Assembly (NCBI GenBank): GCA_036785375.1
Contig: JAWMAR010000283.1
Location: 310,001-374,000 of the forward strand
From: Leucoraja ocellata
Taxonomy: Eukaryota
DNA: 64,000 nucleotides
Direction of reading: 5' to 3'
Shown: positions 3,351 to 59,279 of the stretch, in pieces
Layout: every line of letters starts with the position of its first letter
How positions within the stretch are numbered: position 1 is the stretch's first letter
The notes under the pieces: generated by a model
Database searches by the model: none
Seen by the model: only the letters and a program-made list of their open reading frames with translations
What the model was told of the DNA's origin: nothing
Made by a program: the position numbers and the translations under genes

Positions 3351-3484
3351 GAAGATAGACACAAAATGCTGAAGAAGGGTCTCGACCCGAAACATCACCC
3401 ATTCCTTCTCTCCAGAGATGCTGCCTGTCCCGCTGAGTTACTCCAGCATTTGTGTCTATCTTCAGTGTAAACCAGCATCTGCAG
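3351..3484 (+). mobile_element. Penelope-derived fold-back terminal repeat with hammerhead-like core
   Basis: gaagatagacacaaaatgctg is inverted against cagcatttgtgtctatcttc; CTGAAGAA-GGGTC-TC-GACCC-GAAAC-ATC at 3369-3396. Confidence 0.75.
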
Positions 3485-3878
3485 GGGGGATCTTATAGAA
3501 ACTTACAAAATTCTTAAGAGGTTGGACAGGCTAGATGCAGGAAGATTGTTCCCGATGTTGGGGAAGTCCAGAACAAGGGGTCACAGTTTAAGGATAAGGT
3601 GGACATCTTTTAGGACCGAGATGAGAAAAACATTTTGCACACAGAGAGTGGTGAATCTCTGGAATTCTCTGCCACAGAAGGTAGTTGAGGCCAGTCATTG
3701 GCTATATTTAAGAGGGAGTTAGATGTGGCCCTTGTGGCTAAAGGGATCAGGGGGTATGGAGAGAAGGCAGGTACAGGATACTGAGTTGGATGATCAGCCA
3801 TGATCATATTGAATGGCGGTGCAGGCTCGAAGGGCCGAATGGCCTACTCCTGCACCTATTTTCTAAGTTTCTATGTTT
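3485..3878 (+). mobile_element. CR1 LINE 3' end, young subfamily
   Basis: Encodes CR1 ORF2 C-terminus (RTRGHSLRI...FCTQRVVNLWNSLP) and ends in a tttctatg tail. Confidence 0.92.
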
Positions 3879-5182
3879 GCTACACACTTCTCTTCCTTTC
3901 CTGGATGTCCCTATCTCCCATCTTGGGAGGCAAACTATCCACCAATAACTACTTCTTGGCTCGGTAGTGATGTGTCAATCCTTTTCTGTTGACAGTCCAT
4001 TGTTCCGTCGTCTGACTGGATTCTTTCTTTCACGAGCTGTATGCAAAGATTTTTAATGGGACGCCTTGTAACCACTGACTTGAGATAATTCATGTGGAAA
4101 CCACTCATCTACTTGTGGTTTCTGCAGGCTTTTCTATGAAATTAAGATAAGTGGATTTTTGTGCGCATGACTTGTAAACAAAAATAATGAGCCCTCTTTC
4201 TAGGAAAGAGATTGATCTATGGTCAGTGTGAAAACAAATCAAATTCTAGCTCTGGAGTATACCGATCATCGCGAGATAAAGTTTACTGTGTGAGTATTTA
4301 TCCTATTTTACAGTCCATGGATATGCTGAGACCACAACTGCAGCACACACAGCCAGGGTACTAGTGTTTGCTGCGTTCTGCTGGCATGTAATAACTCGAT
4401 CTGCTTCGTGCCGACAAAATATATTAAAAGTATGGAAGAGTGAAGTTTGTGCCCCAGGGAGAAAGAGAGATAATGCATTGAAATTGTTCAGAGGTAGTTA
4501 GATGCCTAATGGTCTAATATGTGAGCTATGTGAGGTCCACTGTCTGACTCCCATAAATTCTGGCTACAGTGATCCAGTAATTTAGGGGACAGGATGGAAC
4601 TGTCATCTCTGGTCATCAGTGCTTGGGATCAATTATGCTGATTCTTTCTATTGAGTGCTTTTTAGCAGTTTTGTTTAAAGTGAGGAGCAGTAGGTGGTTT
4701 AAACTGGTCTATTTTTTTTTACTCCTGTGGATAATCTTTCCTTGCACCTTTCATTCCATCTTGTGTAGAGAATGGCGCTTAACGTAGTGGTCTCTGTCAA
4801 ACTGCGTAAGTGGAGCAGAATTTAAACATGGTTGTAAGGAACAGTTACGGTTACACCCTCCATTTGTTCTGTCGTTGCTCCAGTGAATTTGCTACTGATA
4901 CTGAATTAGCAGTTTCTGCAAAATTGGCAACGTTCCACCGCATAGTTCATATTGGTATGGTGTGAAAAATCTAACCATATGAACATCAAACATGCGGTGT
5001 AACTGGGACACAAGGTATTTGGTTGTAATCAATTATGCACACGGTATTTTAATCTTTATCTGGGTTTGTGTCCAAGCATGCTAACAAACTACAAGTACGA
5101 TTATTTGTGAATATTGTAGGGAAATTTTCAGCATTCATTAAATTTAATTCTACCAATGTTTTCATGGTATGCATTTGTTTTC

Positions 5183-5537
5183 ATGTTCCTAAGTTATAGG
5201 AGCAGAATTAGGCCATTCGGTCCATCAGATTTGCTCCGCCATTCAATCATGGCTGACCTATCTTTCCCTCTCAACCACATTCTCCTGCCTTCTTCCTATA
5301 ACCCCTGATAACCTTTGTAATCAAGAATGTCAATCTCCACCTAATAATATCCATTGACTTGGCCTCCACAGCCTTCTGTGGCAATGAATTCCACAGATTC
5401 ACCAACCACCCCCTGACTAAAGAAATTCCGTCTCTCCTTTCTAACGGTACGTCCATTTATTTGGAGGTCATGGCCTCTGGTCCTAGACTCTCCCACTAGT
5501 GGAAACATCCTCTCCACATCCACTCCACTATCCAGGC
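5183..5537 (-). mobile_element. CR1 LINE 3' fragment
   Basis: Minus strand gives SRTRGHDLQI...VNLWNSLPQKAVEA; same subfamily as 23733 and 38040. Confidence 0.88.
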
Positions 5538-7570: not shown

Positions 7571-7786
<216 letters not shown>

Positions 7787-8517
7787 TGAGTGACTTATCT
7801 CTCCTATGCTTTCTCTCTATGGAAAGGTGCTATGTTTTGTAACGAGCCCCCTTATTATTTTTGGGTGATACGAAACTATTTAACACGCAAACATGCAACT
7901 TTGGTTGTGGCGGCCTGGATAGAAGGTTTTGCATTGTCCCATTTCAGAACCATATTTAGAATGGGATATTGATTTTCCTTTTTGATCATTTAAAAAAAAA
8001 AGTATACTTTTTTTCCCATTTTACATGTGCGATATGATGGATTACTGCCACAGTAGTAATACTAGTTGTCCCTTTGTAGATGGCTTAACACGTAACTTTG
8101 AATGGGAGTGGGGGAGATGTGGGGAGGTTGGATTAAATGAAATGATCACAGTACCAAAGAAATGATACAGGAATTACTTATCAAAATACTGGCCCGGGCT
8201 TTATCTGCAGCTTAATTTTGTTCAGTACATTCTCGGGTGATGTTCAGATTAATTGAACTGACAGTTTCCTTTCAAAATTCAGGGAAGGTATTTGCACGGA
8301 TTTCAGGTCTTATACAAACTTAATTACATGGAACCCCATTTTATCATTATAATTCCATGTAGCAGAGGTTGTATTTACAAATGAGAAGACTTTCCTTTTA
8401 TTCGCAGCTTTCCTTAATATATTTATCAAAGCAGGTTCATTTACAAAGTGCTCTATCTATGGGATACAGGCAGGCAGACATTAACGAAGCTTTTAGGTTT
8501 ATCGGACTCCGTGGCTG

Positions 8518-8776
8518 NNNNNNNNNNNNNNNNNNNNNNNNNNNNNNNNNNNNNNNNNNNNNNNNNNNNNNNNNNNNNNNNNNNNNNNNNNNNNNNNNNN
8601 NNNNNNNNNNNNNNNNNNNNNNNNNNNNNNNNNNNNNNNNNNNNNNNNNNNNNNNNNNNNNNNNNNNNNNNNNNNNNNNNNNNNNNNNNNNNNNNNNNNN
8701 NNNNNNNNNNNNNNNNNNNNNNNNNNNNNNNNNNNNNNNNNNNNNNNNNNNNNNNNNNNNNNNNNNNNNNNNNNNN
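8518..8776. other. Assembly gap (259 N)
   Basis: Run of N. Confidence 1.
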
Positions 8777-10249
8777 GCTAGCACTACGTAAAAGGCAATG
8801 TGCCTAGCTACAGTGCAGAAAATTGAGTTGCCCACATTCTGTCAGGCTGACTTATGCAGAAATAAACTGCTGTATTGAAGATCAAAAAATTACCAAGTTG
8901 TTTTATATCAGAATAACACATTTTGTGAAGTACAATATTTGTATCCTTCTTTGAAAGGGTATCGTGAAGCCAGTGAGTTAGATAACATTTAAAGCTGCTA
9001 CGTCAGTTAAATATTTTAATTTTGCCAGTTTATGTTATGCTAGATATGGTACATTTTGTTCCAACTTAATAATTTAATGTTTCCTAAAGAAATGACAACG
9101 TTAAGAGCTCAGCCACCCAAACATCAAAAGCTTCAGAGCGATCAGCTGACATTGTCAATTTTGAAGCAAGAATTAGATATACAGCATCGAGTCGAAGGGG
9201 ACGCAAGGATTTATGTTTGTAAACACTCGACATGGGGTACCAAGTGCCAGATCATAGTCCCATTAGACATCGTAAAGTGCAGGGACTGCACACTATTAAA
9301 AATGGGAAAGGATTCATAAATAGCTTCAACCAAAATCAGTCAAATTAAGTTCTTGTTTCCCAAGTAGAAGGGTGTTTTGCAGAAGTGCCCCAATTAATTT
9401 GTAGAATTTTCCTCTTTGATATCAGCAAATTAATGGTCAGTGCCAGTGGTCTGACGCTGTTAGTTTGAGGCAGCCACATGAAAGGGCATGCTGAATCATT
9501 CCTTTGTCTCAGCAGCACAATCAAGGCTTGGAGAGGTCAGGAGGAAGCTCTGTTTTGATACAGCAAGTGGCGCATCATTCCCATCAGCAGGAAACGTGTT
9601 TGCGATTCCTTACCATTTACTTAATTTCATTTGCTAGAGGCAATAATAAAAAAAAAGAATATTAGACAATATTCGGGATAAAGTGATTAGAAATGTTGCA
9701 AATGTTCCTGGGCAATGATAAATAGCAAGATAAAAGGCTACTTTATGTACAATGAACAGCATTTTTAGCTTTGTCTTTCGTTTCAGTTCTAAATTTAGAA
9801 AGAAAGGTTTACTTAATTCTCTGGGGCACTCTCACTTAGAGGAATTGTAGTACTGTATGGGATTTGAAATCACATGATACCTGAAGACTGAGGTTTTCCT
9901 CTGTAGTGTCAAATTACTGTTTCTTTAAGTTTATCTGATTGTTGTGAAAACATCTTTGGATTCAGTTGTGACTCATGGGAAAATATTGTGGTGGCTTTTG
10001 GCAAGAATCAACATATGGTGTGAAATTTATCTTATCCTATATGATGAATGATGACAGATGGCAAATTTTGTATTAATGTACAGATTCAGTTTATCTTTCT
10101 GGATTACGTGCTGTACATTATTGAGTGTATATGTGACTGCATATCATGAACTGATTTTTTTTAAAGGCTTGCAGTTGTATTTGTCTCAGTTAATACTAAC
10201 AGAATTGCTAATGGCCTAAAATAGTGCTGACATGACACAAGAGACAGGA

Positions 10250-10920
10250 CCTTTATTTATTAATTTATTGTATATTTGCCCATCCCTAATTGCCCTTGAA
10301 AAGGTGATGTTGAGCCACTTGAATCATTGCGTTCTGTTTGGTGAGGGTGCTCCCAGAGTTGTTGGGAAGGAGGTTACAGAATATTGATCCAAGCTGCATA
10401 AGTCAAGATGGTCATAGAGTCAGAGCACGGCAACTTGCCCTTTAGCCCAACTTGCCCATGCCGTCCAAGATGCCCCATCTACACTAGTCCCACCTACCTG
10501 GGTAAGGTTCATATCCCGCTAAACATGGTGTGTGACTTGCTGGGCAAGTTGGAGGTGGTGGTGTTTTTATGTGTTTGTTGACCTTGTACTTCTAGTTGCT
10601 AGAAGATGCTGCAGACTTGGGTGGTGCCGTGTCAGAAGGCGCGGTGAGTTGCGTCAGTGTATCTTACAGATGATGTACATTCATTCACAGCACACTAGTG
10701 ATGGAGGAAGTGACTGTTATGGATAGGTTGCCAATCAAATGGTCTGTCTTGACCTGGAGGATGTTGCATTTCTTAAATGTTGTTGGGGCTAAGTTAATCA
10801 GACATGAGGAGAATATCCATTACACTCCTGACTTGTGGACAGGATATGGTGAAAAGGCATTGGGGAATCATTTACTGCTGAACACCAACCTTTCGAGCTG
10901 TCCATAGAGCCACAATATTC
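10250..10920 (-). mobile_element. Old CR1/L2-group LINE 3' fragment with a nested short CR1 tail (about 10412-10525)
   Basis: Recalled elasmobranch LINE 3' sequence (ccatccctaattgcccttg...); nested piece matches copies at about 17167, 26395 and 63228. Confidence 0.5.
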
Positions 10921-12174
10921 ACGTGCCCCGTTCAGCATACATATTGGTTGATAATTCAACTTACGAGATTACCTTTCTCCACTATATAATTTTTAATTAA
11001 TGTTTGATTTACTTTTAAATTTGGCTTTCATTAAGAAATTTTAGATATTTATAATAAATTCTAATTTTAATACTTAATGTTGTAATTAATCGGATTTTGT
11101 GATCTCCTACAAGGGTATGCTATTGCATTGGCAATTTGAAATCACTTTATTTCATTATGAAAATAAAATGGTCCTTTTTATCCTCACAACGTATTAAAAT
11201 CGAGTGGAAATTAATAGCCAAATTTTTCTCGATTTTTATTCTGCCCCAACAGTAGAATCTTCCCACTTCTTCAGTGGAATTACATTATCAATTATATAAA
11301 AATGAACAATGATTGTTATTACCCAATCATTGTTAAAATATGGCTACCACTTCAATATTAATAGATGGTTACCGAAAGGATATATCAAATAATTAGCATT
11401 GAAAGACGGTAATAAGGAGCTTATTAAAATCCATGTGAAGGATTTCTGACCTTAGCGCTCTGAAGAATACATATCACATGACAGCGAAGTCATCTTGCAA
11501 TATAAGCACCCCCCTTGTCCTCCCTGTTGGATCACCTGCCTATGACATTTAATAAGCTATATGTATGATTTATTGTGTGCCCTTTTGACAAGATCTGAAA
11601 ACTGAAATGTTATAGTCCTTGCTGGCATCCAGTACTGCTTTCATTATACACTCATCTAATGGAAGTGTTACATTTAGTCAAATGGATTATATGTAGAGCT
11701 GTGCAGATCTTGCACATTCCCTGTAGTCATTGTTCATAGCATAATAAAATTATGCTATCAATTTGCTATGAGAGGAACACTAGAGTTCAGTGACTTATAT
11801 TCCAGTGTGTTTATACTGCAATCTGCTACATCTCGAACTTGAGATGATGCAAACAGCACATGGATTCCATTTACTGACTTCTGAGCTGCAACTACACAAT
11901 TTGCCAAGTAGGAACATATAGCGAGGAAAGTCACAAAAGGTTATAATAACCGCCTTAATTGTACACTAGTGTCTTGTGTGACCTGAAGGCACTTGGTAAA
12001 ATTGAATCATTGTGCTGATAATGTTGCCAACATTGTTGTTTGGTTGTTGTGCTGTCCAAGGGATGGCTCTGACTTTTTTAACGAAGATACTGTAGCAACA
12101 AGTGACTATTAATTCTCTTTTGAATAACACATCCAATATCATTGTAATCACTACTTCGCAAATACTGATCTTAA

Positions 12175-12458
12175 AGGGCCTGTCCCACTGTACGTTTCCC
12201 CAGATTCGAACTCGGAGATTCACGGTAATAGCCGCTCGTAGGTACTAGGGGCTCTCGTGGACATTTTTCAACATGGTGAAAAAACATCTCGAGCTTACCG
12301 CGTTTCCCGAGTACCTGCCGTTAGCGTTACGAGCCGCTAAGAGACGCCCCGAGCTCCGACGTACCCGCTACGTACATTCTACGTACTTACCACGAGTTCG
12401 ATTTTTTTTTTAAACTCGGGAGAGCTCTTGGGTAAACTCGTATAGTGGGACAGGCCCT
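12175..12458. mobile_element. Non-autonomous DNA transposon (MITE), PIF/Harbinger-like
   Basis: 20-bp TIRs AGGGCCTGTCCCACTRTACG (19/20 match), TAA on both flanks (12172-12174, 12459-12461), CpG-rich interior. Confidence 0.85.
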
Positions 12459-12479
12459 TAATGGTGATCTGAGTCAGAT

Positions 12480-12785
12480 GGTGCGGCATGGTGGCACAGC
12501 GGTAGAGTGACTGCCTTCCAGCGCCAGAGACCCGGATTCAATCCTGACTACGGGTGCTGTATGTACGGAGTTTGTACATTCTCCTCGTGACCGCATGGGT
12601 GTACCCCTAGTGCTCTGGTTTCCTCCCACACTCCAAAGACATACAGGTTTGTAGGTCAATTGGCTTTGGTAAAAATTGCAAATTGTCCCTAATGTGTAGG
12701 ATAGTGCTAGTGTGTGGGGATCGCTGATTGGCGTTGTCTCAGTTGGCTGAAGGGCCTGTTTACGTGCTGTATTCCTAAACTAAAC
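12480..12785 (+). mobile_element. HE1-like SINE, full length
   Basis: tggcacagcggtagag head, ggattcaatcc B-box, (ctaaa)n tail. Confidence 0.9.
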
Positions 12786-13059
12786 AAAGAAAAAGGTAAA
12801 ACATCAGTTGCTGGCTCCTGTTCCAATTTTCCCTTGAATTGACATAATTCAAGTGCTTTTTTCTCTCAGAACTTGTAGCATCTGATCTTAGCTAGTCCAG
12901 ATGCTTATTATGTTCCGTCGCATCTCCCGAGCATTGTCACTTTTGAAATCTTTGCTGCATCCTGCCAACTAACTGCTCATGTGTGTTGAGATTTGATCCA
13001 TACCAAGACTTCCTCATCAAGTCTATGGCTTGCCACCCGTGAAGCTCAGACCTTGCCTG

Positions 13060-13300
13060 CATTTGAATATGTTAGGGAAATGTGGCTGTCAATTTGACTG
13101 AAAGGGCTTTGACATAAGTGACCAGATAATCTACTTGGTGTCGAGGCTGAGGGATGCATTTTGGCTCGTTTATGTGAAGAAATTTACTGCCTTTGTTGGC
13201 TAATCTATGATTGTGAAATTTTGTAAATTCCACCTGAGATCATTATTTGCTCCAACCCATAGTCTTCTGACAGAGAGGCACAGACATTATCACTGAATAC
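13060..13300 (-). mobile_element. Ancient Deu-domain SINE remnant (SacSINE1-like)
   Basis: tgaccagataatct...tgagggat...ccacctgag and a degenerate tRNA-like head; recalled similarity only. Confidence 0.45.
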
Positions 13301-13337
13301 AAGATTGGTAGCTCTTAAGGAAGAGTCAATCATTTTT

Positions 13338-13369
<32 letters not shown>
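13338..13369. repeat. (ATCA)8 microsatellite
   Basis: Direct reading. Confidence 0.95.
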
Positions 13370-13371
<2 letters not shown>

Positions 13372-13917
13372 TAGTTACTATTACCTTCCTTCTGTGGTTT
13401 ACTTCTGCTGTTACCATTTGTGTTATGACCCTCAATGATGCTATCCAGAAAACTAAGATCAACTATATTCACTCAAATCCATCTTTCATCCTCTTTATCC
13501 AAACCCCTGGCAGTTATTTCATCTGCTTGTCTGAAAATAAGCCTTACATGAGCCAAAACTTTTAATCCAAAATAGTGCAGCATCAGCAGAACTGTCTTTG
13601 GATGTGAACTGTTTCTGCAGACAATTGGTGGACATAGTCCGTCTTCACATCTCAACGAACCCCTGCAAAGTGAAGCCACACGCGGTTCAAATCCAAACTG
13701 ATGAAATGTCGGATAAAAGATCATTCACTTGAAACATTAACCCTGTACCAATGCTTTCTGCCCTTAACTGGCACCTCGTCCAAAATCAGGCCATCTGAAA
13801 AAAATTGGCTACTACTCTTTGTTGCTGTTGTTATGAAGGAAACCTGTTAGTTAATTGCATTTGACAATCTCTCAAAAATTGCCATTTGAATATCATCAGA
13901 AAATATGTTTTCTAACA

Positions 13918-14215
13918 AATAGAAACAAGGAACTGCAAATGTTGGTTGACACAAAAGGACACAAAGTGCTGGAGTAACTTAGCAGGCCAGGCAACATCTC
14001 TGGAGACCATGGATAGATGACGTTTCTGATCTGGATACGTTTTGCAGACGGCTGGTAGGGAGAAGGGGGAAAGAAAACTGGGAGAGGAGAGGCAGGAAAA
14101 AACATGCCATGATTTATCCTTCCTCTCCTCTCTCCCAGTTTTCTTTCCCCGCCCCCCCACCTACAATCCATCCGAAGAAGGGTCCCGACCTGAAACATCA
14201 CCTATCCACATTCTC
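13918..14215. mobile_element. Penelope-derived fold-back element, diverged
   Basis: Minus-orientation terminal repeat (aaggaactgcaaatg...ggagtaact) followed by plus-orientation ccgaagaagggtcccgacctgaaacatcacc. Confidence 0.75.
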
Positions 14216-14334
14216 CGATAACGTCAGTTTAAGGATAAATATTAGCCAGGATGCTACAGAGGAATTTGAGTTGTGGCAATTTTGCAGATGCATCAAAGTC
14301 GGCAGCACACACTTGCTTACTTGGCGCCATGTGT

Positions 14335-14572
14335 CACACAAGGGGAAATGGTTGTGGCTACAGAGGCCAATCTTGCCTATATGATGACCCCACCATGGGA
14401 GTTCCTCGTAGCCATGTCCTAGCCCCAGCCATCTTCAGCTGCTTCATCAACCATCTTCCTTCCAACAAGATGTCAGAAGTAGGGTTGTTCCCAGATGATT
14501 GCACAATGTTGGATTCCATTGTAATTCCACAGTACAGGAGGCAGTCCATGACTACATGTGGAAAGACATAGA
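14335..14572 (+). mobile_element. LINE reverse transcriptase core fragment (CR1/L2 group), degenerate
   Basis: GVPRSHVLAPAIFSCFINHLP...VGLFPDDCT corresponds to GVPQGSVLGP..F..FINDLP...FADD. Confidence 0.85.
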
Positions 14573-14655
14573 CAAGACCCGGCAGTTAGATAGCTCCTTG
14601 GAAACATCACATCCTGCCTCAGCTATCCTCCCTGTACTCCCATTACCTATTAGGC

Positions 14656-14864
14656 TTAGCGATACAGCATGGAAACAGGCCCTTCAACCCAGCAAGTCCG
14701 TGCTGGTCATTGGTCCGTGCCGGTCATTTTTAGGATGTGCGAGGAAACCGGAGCACCCAGAGCAAACTCACACGGTCACCGGGAGAACGCCAAAACTCCT
14801 CACTGCAGCACCCGAGGTCAGGATCGAACCTGGGTCTCGGGTGCTGCACCACTGTGTGCTGCGC
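14656..14864 (-). mobile_element. HE1-like SINE with internal deletion
   Basis: Reverse complement of SINE tail, body and head. Confidence 0.8.
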
Positions 14865-16507
14865 TTTAATTTTTGTTCCTCCATTTCCACCATGAATTGT
14901 CTCTTCTCGAACCACCTCCTCCAGACTATTTGTGACCTGCTTCTCAGATTGCTCTCTCACATTGTTTGACTTGTCTGGTTATTAAACCCTTTTCTTCAAT
15001 GCCTACCCATCAGCTGCTCCCCCCACAATAACCATTTGCCTTTTGTGGCCACTTGCCTATTGTATTTCACTCCCCCATGAAGCTCTTGCCAGGCATTCCT
15101 TGTGCACATTGAACAGAACTGTTCCAAACCAAACCGCTGCTTCAAGAAAGCCAAAAGGCTTGTTTTGGGAGACAAGCAAACAAAAAGCTCAAATAACTCG
15201 TAAGAGTTCCTTACATTATAGCAATAAAAATGTTGGCTGCTTATAATTAGAATTACCCACCTGCTCCATAGCTGGTTGGTTATTTCACTCTTGTCCATCA
15301 ACAGTAAATCAGGGGGGAGGTGGTGGCCTCTAGAAATGGTAACCAAGTAGTTTTAGAAAATGGGCACTCGTTATGAAAAACAGGTGGCAGCAAAAACAGC
15401 TTTGTAGGTATACGTACATCTTGTATTAATAAAATCTTCAAATAGCCCAAGCGAGAAGGCAAACTGATATTTAAAGGAGCAATGTCATCTTGTGGAGGTG
15501 ATAGCGGGGAGGTGATAGTGGTCTGAAGAATGTCAACTATTCCTTTTCTCCAGAAATGCCGCCCGACCCGCTAAGTTACTCCAGCATTTTGTGCCAATAT
15601 ATGATGGTGGGGACAGTTCAGAGAAACCTCATCCATCACCGAACAACAGTGTATATTTAACATTCTCTGGAGGGATTTAGCCATAATGCATTTACGTTCA
15701 CTTTCTACTGTAAAGAAAATTGTCAAGGCATAGTAAATACAACATCAACATTCCCTGCCAAGCAAGAAATGGTGGCACTTTAAACACTTATAAATGGTTA
15801 AATGGTTTAATTTAACCATTTAAATGATGACGATTTAAAACCATAAATTTATGTGGCATCAATGGCACAAATCACTGTTCTGTAAACAAAAATTTATGAA
15901 GCCTTTTCCAACACAGGCCCTTAAATACTTGTGAGCAAGGTATTAAGATGTAAAACAAGTAAGATTGGAAACATTACATATTTGAGAAGATACAGGTCAA
16001 AATTATCTGCTAATATTGTGATAAATCTAAATAGAGAATTGTATATTTAATGGTTTGTTTCCTTTGTTTGAGGGCCCATGTTTCCTTTATGAATATCTAT
16101 AGTACCAGCCGTGTGATGTATAGCACAGCGAGTCAATGTGGCACAGGTTACACGCATAAATCAACGTTAATTTTAAGGTGGGAGGCAGCAAGGAAACAGT
16201 ATTGAATATAGACAGAGAAAAATAGACTAAAACAGAGTGAAGGATGCAGTGTACACAAATAAGCAGCTTAATGCATCTTGGCACACAGTGTAAGCCTTGT
16301 AGGAGCTCGAGGAGCCTCGGGCAATCTGTGAGTTGAATAGCAATTTTATTACTTTGTCATTAAACCAATTTCACAGCAGTATTGTTTGTTAATGAGCAGC
16401 AGCAAAGGAGTGAAGATGTCACAGTGGAATAGCAGTGAGATTTGTGACCAACGACAGCATCACTGAGATGAAAAGGCCATCGAACGAAGGCTATAAAAAG
16501 GAGCAAT

Positions 16508-16590
16508 TGGGGCTGGGAGTGGGGGTGGAGTGGGGGGGTGGGGGGTTGGGGGAAGTGGTTGAGGGAAGTGGTTGAGGAGGGGTTGGAGTG
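16508..16590 (+). repeat. G-rich low-complexity tract, G-quadruplex potential
   Basis: More than six runs of 3 or more G with short loops. Confidence 0.7.
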
Positions 16591-46225: not shown

Positions 46226-47737
46226 TAACCACCTAAATAACCTGGGTAAAATTATGTTCTTTTTAGATTCTGTTAATCCCATGATAAAAAATGTTTAATT
46301 TCAGTCTGGGACAGTTTTGCTCTAATTTGGCTTATACACAAAATTGAATCTACAAGCATGTTGTGCCGACCATGGAGTTGTATGCTTCTGTGTTGGTTTG
46401 CCAGAAGCTTTATTGAAGCCTTTTATTGTCACTCACACTGCTTTGATTTGATGTTGATTTGCACCCGCTGCTTTACTTCAATATGTAAAGTGCTTTTTAT
46501 TTCTGTGAATTGTGTACAACTTGTCAAACGTGCTTCTTGGGGATCAGGAATGATACCGTGGTGTGCACAGAGTAGTTTGGGCAAGAGCTAACGTCTGGAT
46601 TTTTGTGACAGCCAGAGAGAAATTTGGTTTGATTTGTCAGGGTATTGTCAGTGCTGCATAACAAAACTCAGTCAATCCTAGCTAGCGCGAGGAACATTTC
46701 CTCTCTCACTCTGCTGAAGGCACTGACTAACTGGGATTTGGGTCTACAGGTGCCTTCTGAGTACCTTGCCCGAGTTCATGTCTTCATGCGTGGGAGAGGC
46801 ATAGCTGCCAAAACCCAATGCTTTCATTTCCCCAAATCATTACTTACATACAATCAAGAACAGCATATTGGAAAGAAACTGAGACTGGTAGGCTTGGCTG
46901 TTTTCTTTTTCATTTTTCTCCCCTATTCTCAAGCTCTGGAAAATATTTTTAGTGTCACCTTCCTTGCCTAAATTGAGAGAAGTCACCTCAAGCTACAGCT
47001 TTAAAGCTTAAAACGAAAACCCATGAAGATATAGAGGTACAGATAGGGAGTTGCCACAAGCATAGCGGGCTGAATGGCCTTCCCTTTCGCTGTGAAATTC
47101 CCTGATCCCATCAATCTGATCTATAAATGTCAGACCCACACTGCAGCATGCATTTAATAAATTAAGGACTTAAGGAACTGCCTGTGTAATTTATTTTTAA
47201 TCATCATAAATTGCATGCCGTTCATAACACTATTCTTAGTTTTATGTAATTTGATAGTATTGATTGAATGAATCCATTAAATGTTTGGCTGGGTGTCTTC
47301 ATGCTTAGAGTGCAATTAGAGAAGGTGTAGCCAATAGTCACAGTTAATTATCATGGGACAATCAGGGCACAATACCCGACTAAGTAATCTTTAATTTAAG
47401 TGACATTGGCTGCACAAGCAGCGGAATACCTCATTCTTGGACAAAATAAGTTTTCAGACCTTCTAGGCACTGAGAGAGGAATTGTACTTTGGAGCACTCC
47501 ATTGTTTCTGCTTTTGCGATATAAAGTTGCACGCACCTTTGATATGTTTTGTTGCGGCTGGGAATGTTTAAATCTGGGGGTCGTTGGGTTGGTGGACGAT
47601 GGCTTGATTTATTTCTTAAAATTGCGTGTATATGTGTTTTGTTCAACAACATACTGTGTCTGCTGTTTCAGGAGTAACTGCTGATTGTTTGGTATGTCTT
47701 TTCTTTCTCCTCTGTGTCCGCGTTTGACTACAATCAG

Positions 47738-47848
47738 GTTTTCTTCTTGATCCTTCAGTAAGCCAAGGAGCGGCGTACAGTCCAGAAGGCCAACCAATGG
47801 GAAGCTTTGTATTGGATGGCCAGCAACATATGGGAATTCGGCCCGCTG
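47738..47848 (+). CDS. meis2: Meis2 exon 11 with alternative acceptors at 47738 and 47759
   Basis: caatcag|GT gives [37 protein letters not shown]; a second acceptor ccttcag|TA 21 nt downstream removes GFLLDPS; donor G|gtaagc. GFLLDPS and GAAYSPEG distinguish Meis2 from Meis1/3. Confidence 0.96.
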
Positions 47849-48116
47849 GTAAGCTGAGTGCATTTGGCCCACACCCTAAGTGTAGCGTCATCACCTCCCC
47901 TCCCCCTCCCATCCACATGTCCTCTCATGCCCTATCATCACAGGGGGTTCCTCCTTGCCTGCTGCCTGCCTTGCCTGTCTTCTTTGCACCCATGGGGAAA
48001 CAAATCTTGCAGACAAGAGATTTGTGAGGAATTTGTCCACCCCACGGATCCTAAAATACAAAAAAAAAATTTTTTTTTAAGGGTCTCTTTCACTATCTAA
48101 TAGTCGACCTTGCTGA

Positions 48117-48212
<96 letters not shown>

Positions 48213-48770
48213 CCTTCATCTAGTTTACCAATCGCAAAGCACCGGGGAAGTAAGTACGACCGGGCTGTTTATTCTATCTATTACTGTAGTTACATTTTTT
48301 TTAAATTCCCACCCACCCATTCCTCCAATTTTTTTTTTGCCTTGCCCGTACTTGCATGCTGCTCCAACAAAGGCCCAGTGCAATAGTTTGCCCCATGAAC
48401 ATTCAACCCTATCCCGCAAACTGCAGAAGGTCAACTAGCTCATTTACCATACACAGTGCAAATGAGGTCTGCAAAGCCATTTGTTTTAATTATGGAGCAC
48501 AGCGAATAAAAACGCGAGCAGTGAATGAACAATCGGGACGTTTAAGGGAAAAGAAACATCTTCGGGGCACCCAATTGACTTAAGAGAAATTAACCAGGCT
48601 TCATGAAACGATGAAAGCAAGAAGTGAGACTGTCCTTTGAGTGACATAAATCTGTCAGGAAACGATCGATGCATGAATTATCTTATGTAAAGATGAAATG
48701 TTGCGGTTTGCAATCTATAGTCTGGATGTATGTATGGCACTGGTAACACAACACATTCCTCATTGAGGTT

Positions 48771-48794
48771 CCCCCCCCCCCCCCCCCCCCCCCC
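48771..48794. repeat. Poly-C tract in intron 12 (another at about 53529-53547)
   Basis: Direct reading. Confidence 0.9.
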
Positions 48795-50517
48795 GTTTAG
48801 GCATATCCATCACCTCCTGTGTGAGATATATATAAAAAAAGAGTCAGGAAACTGTATAAAGAAGCAGTGGCAGATATTAAGAGATGACTGCAAGTGAAGG
48901 AATGGAATTGCCAGCGGAGCTGATTGGCTACCGTCTAAATAATCCATCAGATGGAGTGTGTCCAATGCATGTGATGTTTGAGGGATTCGGATACAGCAAA
49001 CACCAATACATCACATCGTTGAGGCATCCGACCATAAGGTTTATTTAATAACTGAAACTCCTTGCACACACTGAGCCGAATGCTTACATTTAAAAAGAGT
49101 GGCAGATTATTTTGTTATTAAATCGCCTTCAATCATTTTGTATTGTAAGTTGTATATTCTACTGTCAATAAAATGACTTTCCTTGCAGTCACCTAACAGG
49201 ATTGTTTCAGGTTATATAAAATACGATCTTATAGTTTCACGTATGATCTTTGCGGGGGTTACCACGATGCACCAGCTACAGTCAGTTTCCTTCCTTCTTC
49301 TTACAGTATTTCTATAATGCAGTCAAAATGGAACGTTGAAAACAACGTTCCCTAAAACAGTATTTGAAACAGCATTTTCTCAGCTTGGGTAATTCTTAAT
49401 GTAGGCCATATAATTTCTGGCCTATTTAATTACATAACATATTTTATGCTTCATAACCAATTACATTAATGGCTTAATACTAACAATATTATCCTCCCTT
49501 TATTTGATTATGCAGCCAGACAATATGGTATATTTGGTACTTAATTATCATCAACCAGTGAGCATGCTGCTGTGCTGGAATAAACAGGACTGAGTGGGAC
49601 TTATTACACGGTGCAGACTGTATTATTGTCTCAGTATGGTTATGCCAGCATGGTTACTAATAATCTGCAGAATCACTTAACACAATGGCAACCATTTATA
49701 GGACTTCAGTTTACCAGTTTATGGTATAAACACCATCTGCATGCAATTCTATTGGCAAATTCAAGTGGATGAATAGAGGTAAAGTTGATATCCTGTGGTT
49801 CAGACATTATATTGATAGCCATTTTATATTAAAATTAATTCTAGCAAGATGAACGGACACTATGATCTGATTGACATTTACTGACAGATCGTTCTCACTT
49901 ATGCCCACATCCCACGCTCTCAGGTTTGACCCTCTCCCCAACTTCCTTGGCGCTGCAAAGCTAGATCTGTAGCGGCAGTCTGATCATAATACACAACTCC
50001 ACCTGAAACATTTCAAATAACGCAATGAAATAATTTCACCGAATTTCCTAAAAAGACATTTTAAAAAACAATTAGGAGACATTGCATGTACGAAAAAGAG
50101 AGATCCCGTGCAAGAGATTTTCTTCACATTGATGCCTTCCTGACCACTTGCCGTGTTCCTTTTAATAACATCTTCTCTGGTTCTACTTAATTTTCACTTT
50201 TTCTATTGTTTCCTGTATTTTTTCTGCCCGAAACTTGATCCTCCATTCTTTCATGAACCTGTGACCCATGAGTAAAATTGAACACATGGTGATTAAATTA
50301 ATCATTTTGACTTGTCCAGTGTGATTTATTATTATAAAACACATGCGATTATGTAATACAGTGATACGTAATACATCAATATTACTGCAATCCAATGCGT
50401 ATAGAGATGATGTGTCGAGACATGTACAAATAACCAGTAATGAGACATAAGGATATGCTTTTGCAGAATTATTTCTTAATGTTAACACATTGTGTTTGTT
50501 TATTCTTGTCTTTTCAG

Positions 50518-50804
50518 GTTTACAAGGCATGCCAGGGGACTATGTATCTCAGGGTGGTCCTATGGGTATGAGTATGGCACAGCCAAGTTACACTCCTCCC
50601 CAGATGACCCCACACCCTGCCCAGTTAAGACATGGACCCCCAATGCATCCCTATCTCCCAAGTCACCCACATCACCCGGCCATGATGATGCATGGTGGAC
50701 CCCCACCTCACCCTGGAATGCCAATGTCAGCACAGAGCCCCACAATGTTAAATCCTGTAGACCCCAGTGTGGGGGGGCAAGTTATGGACATTCATGCCCA
50801 ATAG
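50518..50804 (+). CDS. meis2: Meis2 terminal exon 13 coding part (long C-terminus, used when exon 12 is skipped)
   Basis: Acceptor ttttcag|GT; encodes GLQGMPGDYVSQGGPMGMSMAQPSYTPPQMTPHP...GGQVMDIHAQ-stop, closely matching the mammalian MEIS2 C-terminus. Confidence 0.97.
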
Positions 50805-52997: not shown

Positions 52998-53085
52998 TAG
53001 ACACGAGGAATTGCAGAGGCTGCTTCACAAACAAAAACACACACCATGCTGGAGTAACTCAGCGGAGTTACTCCAGCAATTTGTG
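52998..53085. mobile_element. Minimal Penelope-derived hairpin insertion
   Basis: TGCTGGAGTAACTC-agcg-GAGTTACTCCAGCA hairpin (53047-53078); TCTGACCATYTGATG duplicated at 52983-52997 and 53086-53100. Confidence 0.82.
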
Positions 53086-56000
53086 TCTGACCATTTGATG
53101 GTGTTCGGCTAGAACGTGTTAGAAACTCCCCAGTTTAGAAAACTTCGGTCGCAAACATTTCATTGCCGGATCCATCAGTTCAGCCACAACCCGAGACTCC
53201 GGCGACGTCGCAACTGCAAAGTTGCGGGACAGACGCTGCATTTTCTGCACCAGCCCGGGTCTCACTCTCTGCGATTAAACTTTTTCGCGGGTTCAAGCTT
53301 ACTCTTTGCTCTTTATGTCTTTGCTCGAGTCTCCCAAATGCCATGAGAACGTCCTTTCACTCATTTACTCCAGAAACGTGAGGGGTTTTTTTTGTTTTTG
53401 TCTTAAACAAAGTGGTCAATCTTGAGAGGAGGCCAAATTTCCACCCTCGCTTCCACATTTCCCCTCATCAACCCCCTGCATTCAAATGCATTTGTGAATG
53501 CTCCTACTGTTCTGCTGGTGTCGCCTCACCCCCCCCCCCCCCCCCCCATTAAAGTGCCGGGCTCCCCGCCGCAAGAGCTCAGGTTGAAAGAACGGTGCTT
53601 GCGCCCAATTAGGTGAGATATTGCTCCTCTACCTTTATTGCTGAAAGGGACCTTTAAAATATGGTGGGCGGGGGAGACACGGAGCGTTCTCCCGTCGTTA
53701 CTTGGAGTAAATAGATTTTCAGTTGTGCATGTAATTAATACATTTAAACAAAATATTTCTATCTGACTCCTGTGCGGAGTGCAGTCCATTTGCTACATGT
53801 TTCTATAACATATTGGCTGGGTTACAAATTTCAATGAATGATGCAAAATGAGCAACTGCATTGTCGCTCAATTCTGAAAAGGTCCCGAGATCCAGATGCT
53901 CTTAAATTTAAAACCACATGGATACCGAATAAGTCCGGTATTAGGGCGTTCTATTGCATCTCCCCGTGTGTTTTAATCCTGCTTCTTGGATATTGTTATC
54001 TGATTTTTAAAACAAAGAAGCAGAGTGCAATTTTTTTATCAGAGGTTTATTTGTTTGTCAGTAAAATGTGCACGTGGGACACTGAAGATTTCACTTTTAC
54101 AAAAGCAGAGTTGATATATATATATATATATTTGTCCATGAACAATAAAACACGTCAGAGCACGGGGTTTTGTGCTGACGGAAACGAAGCAGTTCTCTCG
54201 ATTGTCTGGTCGGATTTGAGAAAGCGGAAAGTTTGATAAAGATTTGGTATCGACTCCACGGCTGAATGTATTCTTGGGGAAATTGATTAAAATGAAACAA
54301 GCAGTTCCACTAAAGTAATTTAAGGGAGGAAATCTATAAAAAAGCCAAGTCCAACAAAAATACCATTTACATAATTGACAACTGCAAATGCAAAACTATA
54401 TTTTTTCACATTTAAAAAAACAAGAAAAGTCATCACATTTCTTAAGAATTGATTGCCAGAGCCAGACCCAAATAAATTATACTGAAATAAATGACCAAGC
54501 AATAGCGTTTAATTTATTTTGCTACAGACTCGTTTACATTTAAGAATGTTTTAAAACCAGCAAAGGAGAAAAAAAAAGCTGTTGTAAATTTGAATAGCCC
54601 GTATAAAGACTTTTCTGCATTTTGGAATTTTTAACCAACCATTTTAGCTGTAAACATGTTACTATGGAGACTCCTTGTATCACAACCCCTAGAGCCCAGA
54701 GTGGGTCAGAGAAAACGCCGCTATTTCTGGAGATCATTTATCACTGTCACCAGATAATGATTCCCGCAGCAACCTCCTATTGATGTTTATAATTGCATTA
54801 TCTCATATGGAATGATCAATGAAAACGGGAGCCAGGCATGGGATAATCGGCGAACGCCTCCAACAAAAAAAAACTTCTTTACTCTTTTCAAAAGATAAGC
54901 AAAAAAAAAAAATTCTTTACAAACTCAATTCACATTTGGATTCAGCCTCAGTTTCAGAAATCCAAGGTTACTATTCCGACGTCTGAAAAAGTCCGCAGAT
55001 AACCAATATGAACAGGAGAAAAAGAATCAATTCGGATTGTGTTACCGCCTCTCACGGAAGTTATGACAAATTACCTGTGAACGCTTTCTATGAGGATACT
55101 TGCTATTATCTCGGAGTCCGACTAAATCAATGCAAATAAATGCTCCGACTGCACTTGTGTGACCCCCGCTGTACATATGCACGATTGTCTGAAATACATT
55201 TTGTTGTGCTTTAAAATGTCAGCTTTGATTCCAACCGCTCTCTAAGTGTGTCTATTCTTTAATTATTTTAAGAAAGGTTTCTTTTTTGGCCTCGGGGGTA
55301 CTTTGATAAATTTCCATAAAATATTTACCAGTTGAGAACGAATGCGAATCTTTCTTTTTCAAAATTATTGATACTAATCGACAAGTTTGACTTTGTGACA
55401 AGTTACACTTGAAAATACATCCTAATTAGATTGCTGGTCCAAAGCGCCAGCGCAGACAAATATCGGATTAATACTATGTTTTTGGACCATGTTGCTGTCT
55501 GTGAATGAAATCCTACCGAAAATATCTGCGATGGATATTTGTCGCACATTGGTGGACACTGTGTCTATATTATTACCATTCAATGTCGCTTCCCTTAAGC
55601 GAAATCAATGTAATGCAGATAAAAATGAGTACCTTTCGTCCTTTTAAAAAAAAAAGTTTTGCATCTGTTGTGCGATCACATTTAACAACGAATTGCATTC
55701 AGTCAGAAGCCGTCAGAAGCAAGAATTGGCAATGGGGAAACTGAGGTTTGCTATAAGTTTGTATTAAATCCAAATTTCAGCTTCGCCATAACGTGCTTTA
55801 GAATCTTTATATATGCGTCGGTATGGTAAATTATGATTCATGTTTACCCAAGATGAACCTTGTAGACTTATTGGTATTTTTTCCGCTGTGCAACGAAGCT
55901 TATTTTGATTGTTCCCGGAAATGTCAGAATGTCTTTAAGACCAGGTTTTCTTCGCTTCCAGTTCATTCTTTCTTCAGCCCACACATTATATATCGGTTTC

Positions 56001-57879
56001 AAAATCAGTCCACACCTCATCCCCCCCTAACAAATTGGACTCTCATCATTTTACCATGAACACCGTGGATTATCTCCCGGTGGGTAACGATAGGAACATT
56101 GTATATCGTTACATTTCGGGTACCACAGCACGATTCATTAAGAAGTAATGGAAACGATACACATTGAAACTGATAGGAGTGTATATCGGTCATAAAATAC
56201 ATCAATATAAGTGACGTCAATCTGTATTTGTCTCTGTTCTGGAGCAACACCTTTACAGGGAAAGAGGTATGCGTGTAACAACATAGGGAAACGCACTGAG
56301 AAATATTGAAACCAGTGCAAAGGACAACCTCTATCATGTAAGCCATTCAATTGAGGCTTGCGGGGAACAGATCTGACTTGAATCACGTTTTTATCTCCTT
56401 TATCCGTTTAAGAAGGCTGGATAAGCTTTTATCCAACGGATTATATATGAAGACATTTTGCAATACATTACCTTGCAATGTGGATGTAAACAATATGATT
56501 CGGGATGTCGGCGTTTGTAATGTACTGCGCCATCGTAATTGAAACCGTTAGGGTAAAGATAAGAGGCAAATGGTAGGAATGTTGAAAGAGCCCTGTATTC
56601 CTTAAACTGCAATCATAGCTTCATCAGTAAATGTGGATTTCCCGGCGGCATAAATCAGATTACTGTACCTCCGTTCTTATTCTGAAAAAGTTATTTAAAA
56701 AAAAAGCGTCAACAGATTATTCCCCACAGAAAGCTCCGAAATATTTTGCATAATTATCCCTAGTGCGTAAATGCCAACTCTTATTTGCTTTTGATGACCA
56801 GGGCCCAAGGGAGGGGGTGGTGGTAATGATAAAATCCCGGCTATTATTTTCAGTATTTTCTATCTTTGCAGGTAACATTTCTGACTCTGAGGAGACTTCG
56901 AGTTTTAACAAACACAGTCAAGAAATGCAGGGGAACGAATATCATCAAAAAGCTTCCGTTGCATTGACTCATTAAGCATACACGCTATCCGACTGCGGTC
57001 TTTTAACCGAGAATTCAAAATATGTTTTTTTGTAAAGAAATGCAAATAAAGTTAAAAAAAAATTCCCATTAGCAATTTGATTTATAAAATCGCACACGGC
57101 CAATCAAAAATGTATGCCACTTCGTGTGAAGGATACTCACAATCAATATTACAAATAAATATTAAAGTCTGCTGGAATAAGCAAAGCGTCGGGCTATTAG
57201 AAGTACTGATTAATAACTAGCAGGATAATGTTCATAGCCTTTTCTGCCCGACTGCCTTTTTGAATTAGAGACAGTTCCACGCTCTCCAGTGCGTCTACCT
57301 TGGAGAAGAATGAGTGACGGATATTTTTCATCGCTCTCCTCGACTTAATGATGTAAATATTCTAATTAGTAAATCACACTTGCTCAAGGCAAGAGCGACG
57401 GATCGAACCGCCCGCTCAGCAAAATACGCTGCAGTTTTCTTCCCTTTTTGCTTTGGTGGTGGAAATATATCTCGCAAAAATAAAATAAAAAGGAGCATCG
57501 TCTAAAACTTGAGATAAAGTTGAGCCTGCAGCTTGCGGCTGAGGAATCTTGGCTATTTCCAATCTAAGGTTTAATTAGAAGCCCCAGGCGCGAGGTTTGC
57601 ATGAAGACCCTCTCTTTCCTCATTAGTTTCTCATCACTAATCTTGGGTGTTATGTTGGCTTAAAAGGTTGTCAACATTTGACCAACTCCGTGAAAATAAA
57701 CACAGTCTATAGCTCCGGGAGTCGCAGGGCACTGCAAATAAATCGTGTTCGAACCAGCGGAACTAACAGGCGCAAAAATGTTGATAATTTATCGTTTCAA
57801 ATCCTTGTTATTTCCTACCAAGCATTCATTTTTTTTATCCCTCAATGCAGGGGGAAAAAAGGTTATAAATATCCCGCGG

Positions 57880-58200
57880 GTAGTTGGTGGCTAATGCGGG
57901 TATTAATTGCATAAAGATCTCATGATAACTGTAAGTAACAATCTTGGCTTTGCTCGGGAGTCAGACGGGGAGTCAGCGGGCAGCGGGGCAGAGCGAGCGG
58001 CGGCAGCGGCCTCCGAGCGCCCCCTGCTGCCGGGGCCTGCGCCGCCGAGCCGAGCCGTGAAACTGACCCGCAGCCGAGCACATGGGGCGGGGGGGAGTGA
58101 GAGCAATCGCCGCGTTCCCTATTGCTAGCGATCGCGGCAGCTTTACTTCTTAATCACGTGCACACACACACACACACGGGCTGGAATATGCACGTACAAA
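57880..58200. promoter_or_regulatory. CpG island core downstream of Meis2
   Basis: GC- and CpG-dense stretch (gagcgagcggcggcagcggcc...ggggcggggg) that matches no repeat seen in the window. Confidence 0.7.
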
Positions 58201-59151
58201 TCGATCAGACAATGCATGCACAAGTTTGTTAAAATGTAGATGCAGGTTTTGCAAATGCAACACTTTTGTTTCAATATCTATCTTTAACTATCCTAAATAG
58301 TTTTGATTATTTGCTTTTCCTCCCACTGATTGCGGTTTTATATTTCCAAACAAACTCGCATGTGTGGAAACATATCAAGGTGCGATCGCGACTCTGCTTA
58401 CAATCAAACGCAAACCCTCCGATCCTTTGCAAGCTACGGCTTCGGAGGGGTGGGTGGTTGGTTGCAAATCGCATGACCGGTTTGTTTCGGTGCAAAAGTT
58501 ACTGATATTGTACCTGAAAGCAGCCCTTGGCATCGTAGCTGAAAGTTAATATTCTGGAACATCAGCGAACCATAGTGCCGTCGAGTCTCCGGGGGTGGCG
58601 TGTTTACCTGTGCAATTAGTGCACATATAGTTTATCAATAAAATGCATATCTAGCCGAGTAATGCTTGGTGCGGTACGCTGCTTAGAGGGGACGTCTTTG
58701 AAAGGATGGGAGCACAGTTTCACTTTATTTTTTTATTAAAACCCTGTTATTTGCAAAGTGCAAATTCCAACAACACTGCCGTGAACACGAATCAACAAAT
58801 CGCACGAAACATTGCGTTTGGTTTCAGTAATAAACCAGTAATAGACCCGAATTCTAAACCACGATTAGAAAAATACCTGCAAGATCTGTTTGCATGCAAT
58901 CTTAATAATGAATTCAAATGCTTAAAGTGCATTCATATTACCGATTAAAAAGAGGATGCCAATCATTTTCCCAATGTACAGGCAAAATCAGTCATCAAGT
59001 TGTCTTAATATATTCAGCAAATAGTGAGGACATTATCGGTATTTTGAGTTGAAATATCAGTCTGGGCACTTCTCTGCGAATATCCTGACCAGTTAACAAT
59101 ACCCTCGCTGGTTAAAAGTGGATGGGTCACAACACTACTCATGCTCAATTG

Positions 59152-59279
59152 TTTAATAAAGAACTGCAGATGCTGGAAAACCCGAAGGTAGACAAAAAAG
59201 CTGGACAAACTCAGCGGGTGAGGCAGCATCTATGGAACGAAGGAATAGGCGACGTTTCGGGTCGAGACCCTTCTTCAGT
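59152..59279 (-). mobile_element. Penelope-derived terminal repeat, young
   Basis: Same family as 25063-25190; CpGs retained. Confidence 0.82.
59251..59278 (-). ncRNA. Minimal type I hammerhead ribozyme core (PLE-associated), candidate
   Basis: Minus strand CUGAAGA-A-GGGUC-UC-GACCC-GAAA-C-GUC; helix I pairing is weak and activity is untested. Confidence 0.55.

What the first reader, a model, noticed from the sequence alone, without database searches (positions are those of the whole stretch)
3369..59278. Dispersed Penelope-derived elements carrying minimal hammerhead ribozyme cores across the Meis2 locus
Seen: the motif CTGAAGA-A-(5-bp stem)-GAAA-C-GTY recurs at 3369-3396 (+), about 14172-14198 (+), 25163-25190 (-), about 34995-35023 (-), about 40352-40380 (-), 40729-40756 (+) and 59251-59278 (-). 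Established: Penelope-like elements carry minimal type I hammerheads with a vestigial palindromic helix III, proposed to cleave as dimers. Here helix III is reduced to the ACGU or AACGUU palindrome. Inference: this is an abundant non-autonomous, retrozyme-like family in this genome. Helix I pairing is only about 2 bp by eye, so activity is uncertain.
Basis: partly seen in the sequence, partly recalled or inferred. Interest (0 to 1): 0.7.

Follow-up and report, generated by a model that had tools for sequence, protein, structure and literature searches.

The report
Penelope retrotransposon ends carrying decayed hammerheads
These short repeats in and around a shark-or-ray Meis2 gene are the clipped ends of a known kind of jumping gene, and every copy here has a damaged self-cutting RNA motif; the useful part is that related insertions elsewhere in the genome likely record how its enzyme starts, stops and jumps on its RNA.

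Summary
The seven motifs are real (7 seen, 0.2 expected) and belong to a 95-135 bp repeat with about 1.7 million fragments in this 3.44-Gb cartilaginous-fish genome. The repeat is the 3' end (pLTR hammerhead plus tail) of a Neptune-type Penelope element that is still present as intact 3.9-kb tandem copies encoding RT and GIY-YIG. Distant relatives carry the same motif at the same place, with covarying helices, so it is a known PLE minimal hammerhead. Here helix I is only 2 bp, no window copy is intact, and dispersed copies decay neutrally. The window copies are monomers or inverted pairs, not retrozymes. The scan reported this before on other DNA of this genome, including the pile-up of 5' ends at the motif's front edge (179 of 465 here). 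Added here: 35 insertions that start at the element's two fixed 3' ends, run upstream, then jump to +186..+299 (hot spot +266). Nine repeat the same junction 2-4 times, and one keeps the landing point but leaves from different points. This suggests repeated copying of short pLTR RNAs, which gives rare retrozyme-like arrays without hammerhead cleavage. Cleavage and transcription start were not testable.

The parts
3351..3484 (+). PLE end, core 3369-3396 (ACAU, no helix I), preceded by a 21-nt inverted piece of the tail (3351-3371)
13924..14205 (.). Head-to-head inverted pair joined in the pyrimidine-rich 3' UTR; minus arm with decayed core, plus arm with core 14172-14199 (CCGA, ACAU) and no tail
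15521..15597 (+). PLE end with stem II deleted
25063..25283 (.). Young head-to-head inverted pair; minus arm core 25163-25190 with long tail (92.8% identical over 138 nt to the end of RT/EN copy L051), plus arm with 3-nt core deletion and short end; 84-bp near-perfect hairpin; 15-18 bp target-site duplication at 25045-25062 and 25279-25296
34907..35073 (-). Older PLE end with part of the 3' UTR, core 34995-35022 (AAGU, stem II 3 of 4)
40272..40380 (-). PLE end, core 40352-40379 (ACAU), internal deletion in the tail
40706..40814 (+). Older PLE end with part of the 3' UTR (5' limit approximate), core 40729-40756 (G12 lost)
41678..41806 (-).
42057..42147 (+). Tail only, no hammerhead core
53005..53088 (.). 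Inverted pair of tail pieces, no core, 9-bp target-site duplication
59150..59278 (-). PLE end starting exactly at C3; the only window copy with core, stem II and palindrome intact, but without the 5' strand of helix I
7709..50804 (+). Host gene context: Meis2 coding exons at 7709-7786, about 45274-45334, about 47758-47850 and about 50518-50804

Best explanation
The repeats are the 3' ends of a Neptune-type Penelope-like retrotransposon that survives in this genome as intact 3.9-kb tandem copies; each was likely inserted on its own as a very short reverse transcript, and the hammerhead it carries is a decaying passenger that is predicted not to cut in any window copy. With C3 of CUGA as position 0, the full element has its stop codon at -117, the predicted cut after +27, two fixed 3' ends at about +94 and +130, and the next unit's ATG at +164 (shown). 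By analogy with the anole element, the enzyme binds RNA around the pLTR/ORF start, nicks the target and starts reverse transcription internally at +94 or +130 (inferred). Most often it stops at about -3..+1, the front edge of the hammerhead (pile-up shown; cause inferred, most likely an RNA 5' end made by a start site in the pLTR, about 50%). The product is joined with an 8-20 bp target duplication, often as two head-to-head cDNAs (shown). Sometimes the enzyme jumps to the 3' end of a short pLTR RNA and goes round again, giving 180-470 bp tandem arrays (junctions shown; jumping inferred). In the full element the hammerhead would work only as a weak dimer, perhaps protein-assisted (inferred from published relatives).
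For: 21,383 exact copies of one 28-mer, reversed control 0. 484 hits in 999,800 sampled bases, about 1.67 million genome-wide, bootstrap 1.41-1.96 million. Upstream of longer copies lies a GIY-YIG C-terminus with a CX4CxxC linker, which PMC8557442 gives as a Neptune/Nematis mark. Pfam finds RVT_1 and GIY-YIG in 4 of 4 long ORFs. Best named relatives are shark and ray proteins. Tandem units have a 1221-aa ORF and 0 differences over 3,700 nt. 3' ends: 52 short, 23 long and 8 other of 83 copies; TSD >=8 bp next to the core in 29 of 83, chance 0.7%. 157 of 484 hits are in head-to-head pairs, against 27 tail-to-tail, as described for PLEs (PMC8557442, PMC3846280). Neutral decay: catalytic non-CpG positions 2627/2864 (91.7%) against tail 8132/8865 (91.7%); CpG positions 70-77%; 30 of 327 core-spanning copies fully intact. 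Only 16 of 465 copies start within 2 nt of the cut site, in line with unprocessed RNA as template (PMC11167929). Jump loci: 35 among 60 distinct entries; 34 of 35 end at the two fixed ends, and 34 of 35 land at +186..+299.
Against: No cleavage, start site or RT stop was measured. The GIY-YIG Pfam hits, and 3 of 4 RVT_1 hits, are below the curated cut-offs; the Neptune label rests on the linker motif, with no tree. For the older subfamily C the link to coding DNA is thin: 2 of 74, both doubtful, plus one decayed EN end seen by eye. For the start-site reading: the initiator-like TCAGTC predicts A(-3), but young copies peak at G(-2) (25 of the first 100 rows, tallied by hand; 4,490 of 18,725). 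The cap-G test was inconclusive. Only 6 of 35 jumps leave from about 0. Two copies (L430, L433) stop at +1/+2 although their junctions reach further upstream, which fits an RT pause equally well. Full-length copies do not start at -2 (0 of 24 long entries). One blunt junction recurs in a second, independent insertion, so some derived mini-elements do move. The tail columns in the decay test were chosen for low variation, which flatters the tail slightly.
Confidence: 0.85

Rival explanations
1. The short copies are a self-propagating non-autonomous family (SINE- or retrozyme-like) that is transcribed from short master copies, cut by its hammerhead and moved by the PLE protein.
For: Shared 5' boundary in every subfamily, 31-50% of copies. 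Own TSDs. Huge excess of short over long copies. Tandem arrays with complete hammerheads 240-370 nt apart exist. One junction recurs in an independent insertion, and another blunt junction is shared by L405 and L430.
Against: Short copies mirror the subfamilies of ORF-bearing copies. Flanks upstream of short copies share no common extra sequence apart from inverted arms and other repeats. Short copies lack +135..+266, which all jump templates include. No excess of starts at the cut site. Neutral decay. Arrays are rare: the junction marker has 204 matches against at least 18,725 young cores.
Confidence: 0.1
2. The tandem arrays come from covalent RNA circles made by dimeric hammerhead cleavage and ligation, copied by rolling-circle reverse transcription; the seamless ligation at the cut site would be invisible.
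For: Nine loci repeat one junction exactly 2-4 times with 98-100% identical units. This model is proposed in PMC4209133 and PMC7229834. One of 35 jumps leaves from +28, the first base after the cut (L402), which chance can give.
Against: L377 (+21..+225, no core) and L391 (0..+201, no helix I 5' strand) cannot form the ribozyme yet have four junctions. L366 keeps one landing point (+226/227) but leaves from 0, +44, +138 and +171, which a closed circle cannot give. L363, L369 and L396 end their second round at their own take-off point. The L391 junction has no parent copy elsewhere. Duplicates of the L392 array have 3 or 4 junctions, so unit number can also change after insertion or in assembly.
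Confidence: 0.2
3. The pile-up at -3..+1 is a reverse-transcriptase pause or roadblock (hammerhead fold, TCAG-T-CTGA fold-back, or a protein on the pyrimidine tract and CAG just upstream), not an RNA 5' end.
For: The peak at G(-2) is the outer end of the 2-bp helix I. Inverted junctions cluster at the quasi-palindrome. L430 and L433 stop at +1/+2. A pyrimidine tract plus CAG lies directly upstream, where the Drosophila intron ends (PMC4209133).
Against: L391 leaves from exactly 0 four times, and three loci stop twice at the same base, which is easier with a physical end. A structure would be expected to stall RT at its 3' side (own reasoning). No splice joint was seen in a relative's RNA or in genomic copies.
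Confidence: 0.4
4. Some copies are kept as functional ribozymes acting on the Meis2 pre-mRNA.
For: Six arms lie on the Meis2 sense strand, and the family is present in a relative's RNA.
Against: None of the sense arms has an intact core, palindrome and helix I. Density in the window (14 per 64 kb) is below the genome sample (about 31 per 64 kb). The two best cores are antisense, one locked in an 84-bp hairpin.
Confidence: 0.02

Closest known systems
[quoted passage not shown]
   Same: Type I core, extra base between positions 9 and 10.1, G10.1-C11.1, palindromic 15.2-16.2 with no loop 3, location in the pLTR, mostly single dispersed copies.
   Different: Helix I is 2 bp (4-5 bp in Schistosoma; 2 bp only in D. 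virilis) and helix II is 4 bp. Copy number is about 10^6 fragments against about 4,000-9,000 motifs in coelacanth and Xenopus, though counted by a different method. Cartilaginous fish were not in the parts I read.
EN+ PLEs of the Neptune/Nematis type (PMC8557442; PMC3846280)
   Same: RT plus C-terminal GIY-YIG, CX2-5CxxC linker, DKG motif, partial tandems, inverted 5'-truncated copies, 36-nt optional tail, TSDs.
   Different: The ORF is 1221 aa with a long Pro-rich insert (relatives about 900 aa). Truncation is extreme and sharply placed.
Poseidon element PAc of Anolis (Frangieh et al. 2024, PMC11167929)
   Same: Two internal RT start sites define the tail; RNA downstream of them is needed; unprocessed RNA is the template.
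   Different: There the ORF starts in stem II and RT starts inside the ORF; here both ends lie 35-70 nt before the ATG. Jumps and repeated rounds are not described in the parts I read.
Non-LTR retrozymes (PMC7229834; Li et al. 2026, 10.64898/2026.07.22.740005)
   Same: pLTR-derived, type I hammerhead, no protein; the rare arrays elsewhere in this genome have 180-470 bp units in tandem.
   Different: Window copies are not tandem. The hammerhead is minimal, not canonical. No circles are shown. Li et al. suggest local amplification after insertion or rolling circles, whereas these arrays are TSD-flanked and begin at RT start sites.

Membership tests
PLE minimal hammerhead | CUGANGA/GAAA/UH core with extra base before stem II and G10.1-C11.1 | tested here: met
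   Met in intact elements and invariant in 17 aligned motifs; broken in several window copies
PLE minimal hammerhead | Palindromic helix III (ACGU) with no loop | tested here: met
   16 of 17 aligned motifs; 3 of 7 listed window sites
PLE minimal hammerhead | Covarying helices I and II across families | tested here: met
   86% of cells paired against 59% shuffled; 7 of 8 pairs change on both sides; slid controls 21-48%. Rows were picked by motif match and the structure was mine. Helix I is 2 bp in this genome against 3-5 bp in six relatives
PLE minimal hammerhead | Position in the pLTR of an RT/GIY-YIG element | tested here: met
   116 nt after the stop codon; 95-151 nt after the ORF in 11 of 24 relatives with enough downstream DNA, 0 antisense
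PLE minimal hammerhead | Self-cleavage as a dimer | not testable with these tools
   Needs an assay; predicted folds do not show the active form for this genome's copies
Neptune-type EN+ PLE | Single ORF with RT and C-terminal GIY-YIG | tested here: met
   (most Pfam scores below cut-off; relatives at E<1e-120)
Neptune-type EN+ PLE | CX2-5CxxC linker between RT and EN | tested here: met
   CGRSRCNTC in L072 and CNRKKCNTC in L051; definition from PMC8557442
Neptune-type EN+ PLE | Placement in the Neptune rather than Nematis clade on an RT tree | not tested
   No named reference proteins were at hand
Neptune-type EN+ PLE | Tandem/inverted pLTRs with an optional 30-40 bp tail | tested here: met
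   window 25063-25283
Non-LTR retrozyme | At least two consecutive tandem units with complete hammerheads | tested here: not met
   No window copy is tandem; met only by 7 arrays elsewhere (L364, L372, L389, L392, L393, L394, L403)
Non-LTR retrozyme | Canonical type I hammerhead with stable helix I and loop-loop contacts | tested here: not met
   2-bp helix I, positive duplex energy
Non-LTR retrozyme | Abundant circular RNA | not testable with these tools
   Only poly(A) and single-cell reads of a relative were available

The most novel reading that the evidence does not exclude
This genome records the Penelope copying cycle. The enzyme starts near the 5' end of a short pLTR RNA, makes a strong-stop-like cDNA ending at the hammerhead's front edge (the million short copies), and can then jump to the RNA's 3' end (hot spot +266) and copy the same RNA again and again. 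This is a reiterative synthesis by a telomerase-related enzyme; it would build pLTR tandems and give birth to retrozyme-like arrays in a single insertion, without ribozyme cleavage, and some of these arrays then move again.
Probability: 0.4. Interest if true: 0.7.

Novelty: new member of a known kind. Interest (0 to 1): 0.4.

Why it matters
As a feature of the Meis2 locus it is ordinary: dead ends of a known retrotransposon. As a record it has value. How PLEs make their tandem pLTRs, what the hammerhead does and how retrozymes arise are open questions (PMC11167929, PMC8557442, 10.64898/2026.07.22.740005). A young family with identical intact copies, fixed RT start sites, a sharp stop and dozens of readable jump junctions makes these questions testable both in the genome and in vitro. 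At about 1.7 million fragments, a third in hairpin-forming pairs, the repeat is also a large source of intronic double-stranded RNA.

Tried and rejected
Rfam: no hammerhead match; the miRNA hits at 14053-14162 and 25123-25257 are the inverted pairs. Coding remnants in the window: none beyond the tail itself. Splicing into the CAG before the core, as in D. virilis: a genome pattern for a spliced form gave 9 heterogeneous matches; no GT..AG joint among the 12 joints or the 15 of 107 shown. Read ends at the cut site or at -3: no pile-up reported. These reads come from a related organism (at most 0.54 of words shared) in fragmented poly(A) or single-cell libraries swamped by read-through copies, so this is not evidence. 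No RNA holder was on record for the index search. Cap-derived extra G: G precedes GT in 44 of the first 100 rows against about 30 expected (by hand), but about 12 come from inversions or duplications, and TSD-resolved fillers show no single-G rule; inconclusive. Cut-site footprint in 5' ends: none. A parent for the L391 array: none. L431 and L432 looked like daughters of L392 but share its flanks, so they are duplicates. Pfam missed the 219-aa broken EN piece. Lunse et al. (RNA Biol 14:1499) was not held; I know it only from the review passage. Twenty further junction loci were not fetched, so the jump tally rests on 70 of 204 matches.
Full report
Observation. All seven cores are present. A relaxed core pattern gives 7 matches against 0.205 expected. 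A profile built from them finds 14 arms at E<0.05, in about 11 insertions. Only 3 of the 7 listed sites keep the ACGU palindrome, 2 have a broken core, and none has core, stem II, palindrome and the 2-bp helix I together. The changes are mostly CpG decay. The gene is Meis2 on the plus strand, and no sense-strand arm is intact. Rfam has no hammerhead match.

What the repeat is. The window lies in a 3.44-Gb genome in which the 28-mer of site 59251 occurs 21,383 times. In 100 arbitrarily placed 10-kb stretches from larger contigs the profile gives 484 hits, about 1.67 million arms genome-wide; a reversed control on the first 40 stretches gave 0. Longer copies extend upstream into a GIY-YIG C-terminus with a CX4CxxC linker, and further into RT. 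The closest named proteins are from sharks and rays. Intact head-to-tail copies exist: unit 3,946 bp, ORF 1221 aa, two units identical over 3,700 nt. With C3 of CUGA as 0, the stop codon ends at -117 and the next ATG is at +164. The window arm at 25061-25198 is 92.8% identical to the end of one RT/EN copy, and the window has no coding remnant. Subfamilies of short copies match ORF-linked copies: A1 7/100, A2 8/39, B 8/48, D 2/59; C 2/74 is doubtful.

Is it a hammerhead? Of 80 metagenome loci with related ORFs, 24 had the ORF end and enough DNA behind it. Eleven of these carry the same motif 95-151 nt after the ORF, and none on the other strand. I aligned 17 motifs, 3 from this genome and 14 chosen from those loci by motif match. 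Of the cells, 86% pair against 59% in shuffles, and 7 of 8 pairs change on both sides. The motif is therefore the PLE minimal hammerhead of PMC4209133. In this lineage helix I has only 2 contiguous pairs, against 3-5 in six relatives, and the predicted folds do not show the active form. Published relatives cleave weakly, as dimers (PMC4209133) or only with the PLE protein (PMC11167929). In the dispersed copies the catalytic non-CpG positions are kept no better than the tail (91.7% each), and 30 of 327 are intact.

How the short copies arise. 3' ends fall at about +94 or +130 in 75 of 83 young copies, the tail signature that PMC11167929 traced to two internal RT start sites. 5' ends pile up at -9..+1 in 179 of 465 copies, against 30 over the 90 positions upstream and 16 at the cut site. 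In the young family the mode is G(-2). TSDs of 8-20 bp flank 29 of 83 copies, a sample partly chosen for short copies; chance is 0.7%. The copies were therefore born short. 157 of 484 hits are head-to-head pairs, as at 25063-25283. Whether the stop marks an RNA 5' end or an RT pause is unsettled; the splice and cap tests gave nothing.

Jumps and arrays. A marker for the UTR/ATG junction has 204 matches. I fetched 70, which reduce to 60 entries: 35 jump loci, 24 long elements (two pairs from the same arrays) and 1 other. In the jump loci, 34 of 35 end at the two fixed ends, run upstream to a point X (-194..+28; 6 near 0), and continue from a point Y (+186..+299 in 34 of 35; +263..+269 in 12). 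Fifteen junctions are blunt. Nine loci repeat the same junction 2-4 times. L366 keeps Y and changes X in each round. L363, L369 and L396 stop their second round at their own X. Two four-junction arrays cannot form the ribozyme. A genome pattern confirms +266 as a landing site reached from about 24 points. I read this as jumping to the 3' end of a short pLTR RNA, with repeated rounds. Single jumps could also be skips on a long RNA, and extra units could be added after insertion. One junction recurs in an independent insertion, so such arrays can seed new copies.

Comparison and novelty. The element is a new member of a known kind: a Neptune-type PLE with a minimal hammerhead. The window copies fail the retrozyme tests (not tandem, no stable helix I). 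Nine library searches showed no paper on this family, the sharp 5' stop or such jump arrays. The library lacks most subscription journals and Repbase, Lunse et al. was not held, and the closed supplements of Li et al., who report retrozymes in one cartilaginous fish, may already list these arrays. Earlier agents of this scan reached the same main reading on other DNA of this genome, and one noted a twice-copied fragment in another shark genome. These are unchecked notes, and I read them after forming each reading.

Papers seen: PMC4209133 parts 1-2 of 4, plus a term search of its supplements (file 1 not searchable); 10.64898/2026.07.22.740005 parts 1-3 of 5; PMC11167929 parts 1-2 of 4; passages only of PMC8557442, PMC6765202, PMC2377424, PMC7229834 and PMC3846280. 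The initiator consensus, hammerhead numbering and the HE1/V-SINE name are recalled.

Verdict. Observation confirmed; interpretation partly supported; interest 0.4. The bold reading (strong-stop cDNA plus reiterative end-jumping that gives birth to retrozyme-like arrays) has probability 0.4 and interest 0.7 if true.

Noticed in passing
G000 loci L363-L430, L433 (outside the window): TSD-flanked insertions with jump junctions and 2-4 repeated rounds. The landing hot spot is +266: 39 of 52 pattern matches go on into pLTR sequence at about 24 different points (by eye).
   Followed up: yes
L072:3806-7504: The young ORF (1221 aa) has a long Pro-rich low-complexity insert between the N-terminal region and RT; full-length relatives are about 900 aa.
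   Followed up: no
L367:4-623: A 66-bp tandem of an older subfamily's tail piece, about eight units; possibly the same repeated copying in an older subfamily.
   Followed up: no
window 24371-24433 (-): Weak Rfam match to the CPEB3 HDV-like ribozyme, 26.7 bits against a cut-off of 35, E 0.007.
   Followed up: no
window 1010-1112, 12491-12787, 24667-24911, 31982-32280, 45920-46218 and others: About ten copies of a 300-bp SINE-like repeat (families D1-D3, D12, D17); it resembles shark HE1/V-SINE, a name I recall and did not test.
   Followed up: no
window 1839-2126 and 3592-3878: Long inverted repeat, 89-97% complementary, about 1.5 kb apart, enclosing the 3369 site.
   Followed up: no
L072:3200-3810 in runs X22, X23: Single-cell reads of a related organism are several-fold biased to one strand over most of the EN end and pLTR, probably the sense strand; depth falls about 50-fold past the tail.
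   Followed up: partly
window 8518-8776: 259 N; nothing can be said about this stretch.
   Followed up: no
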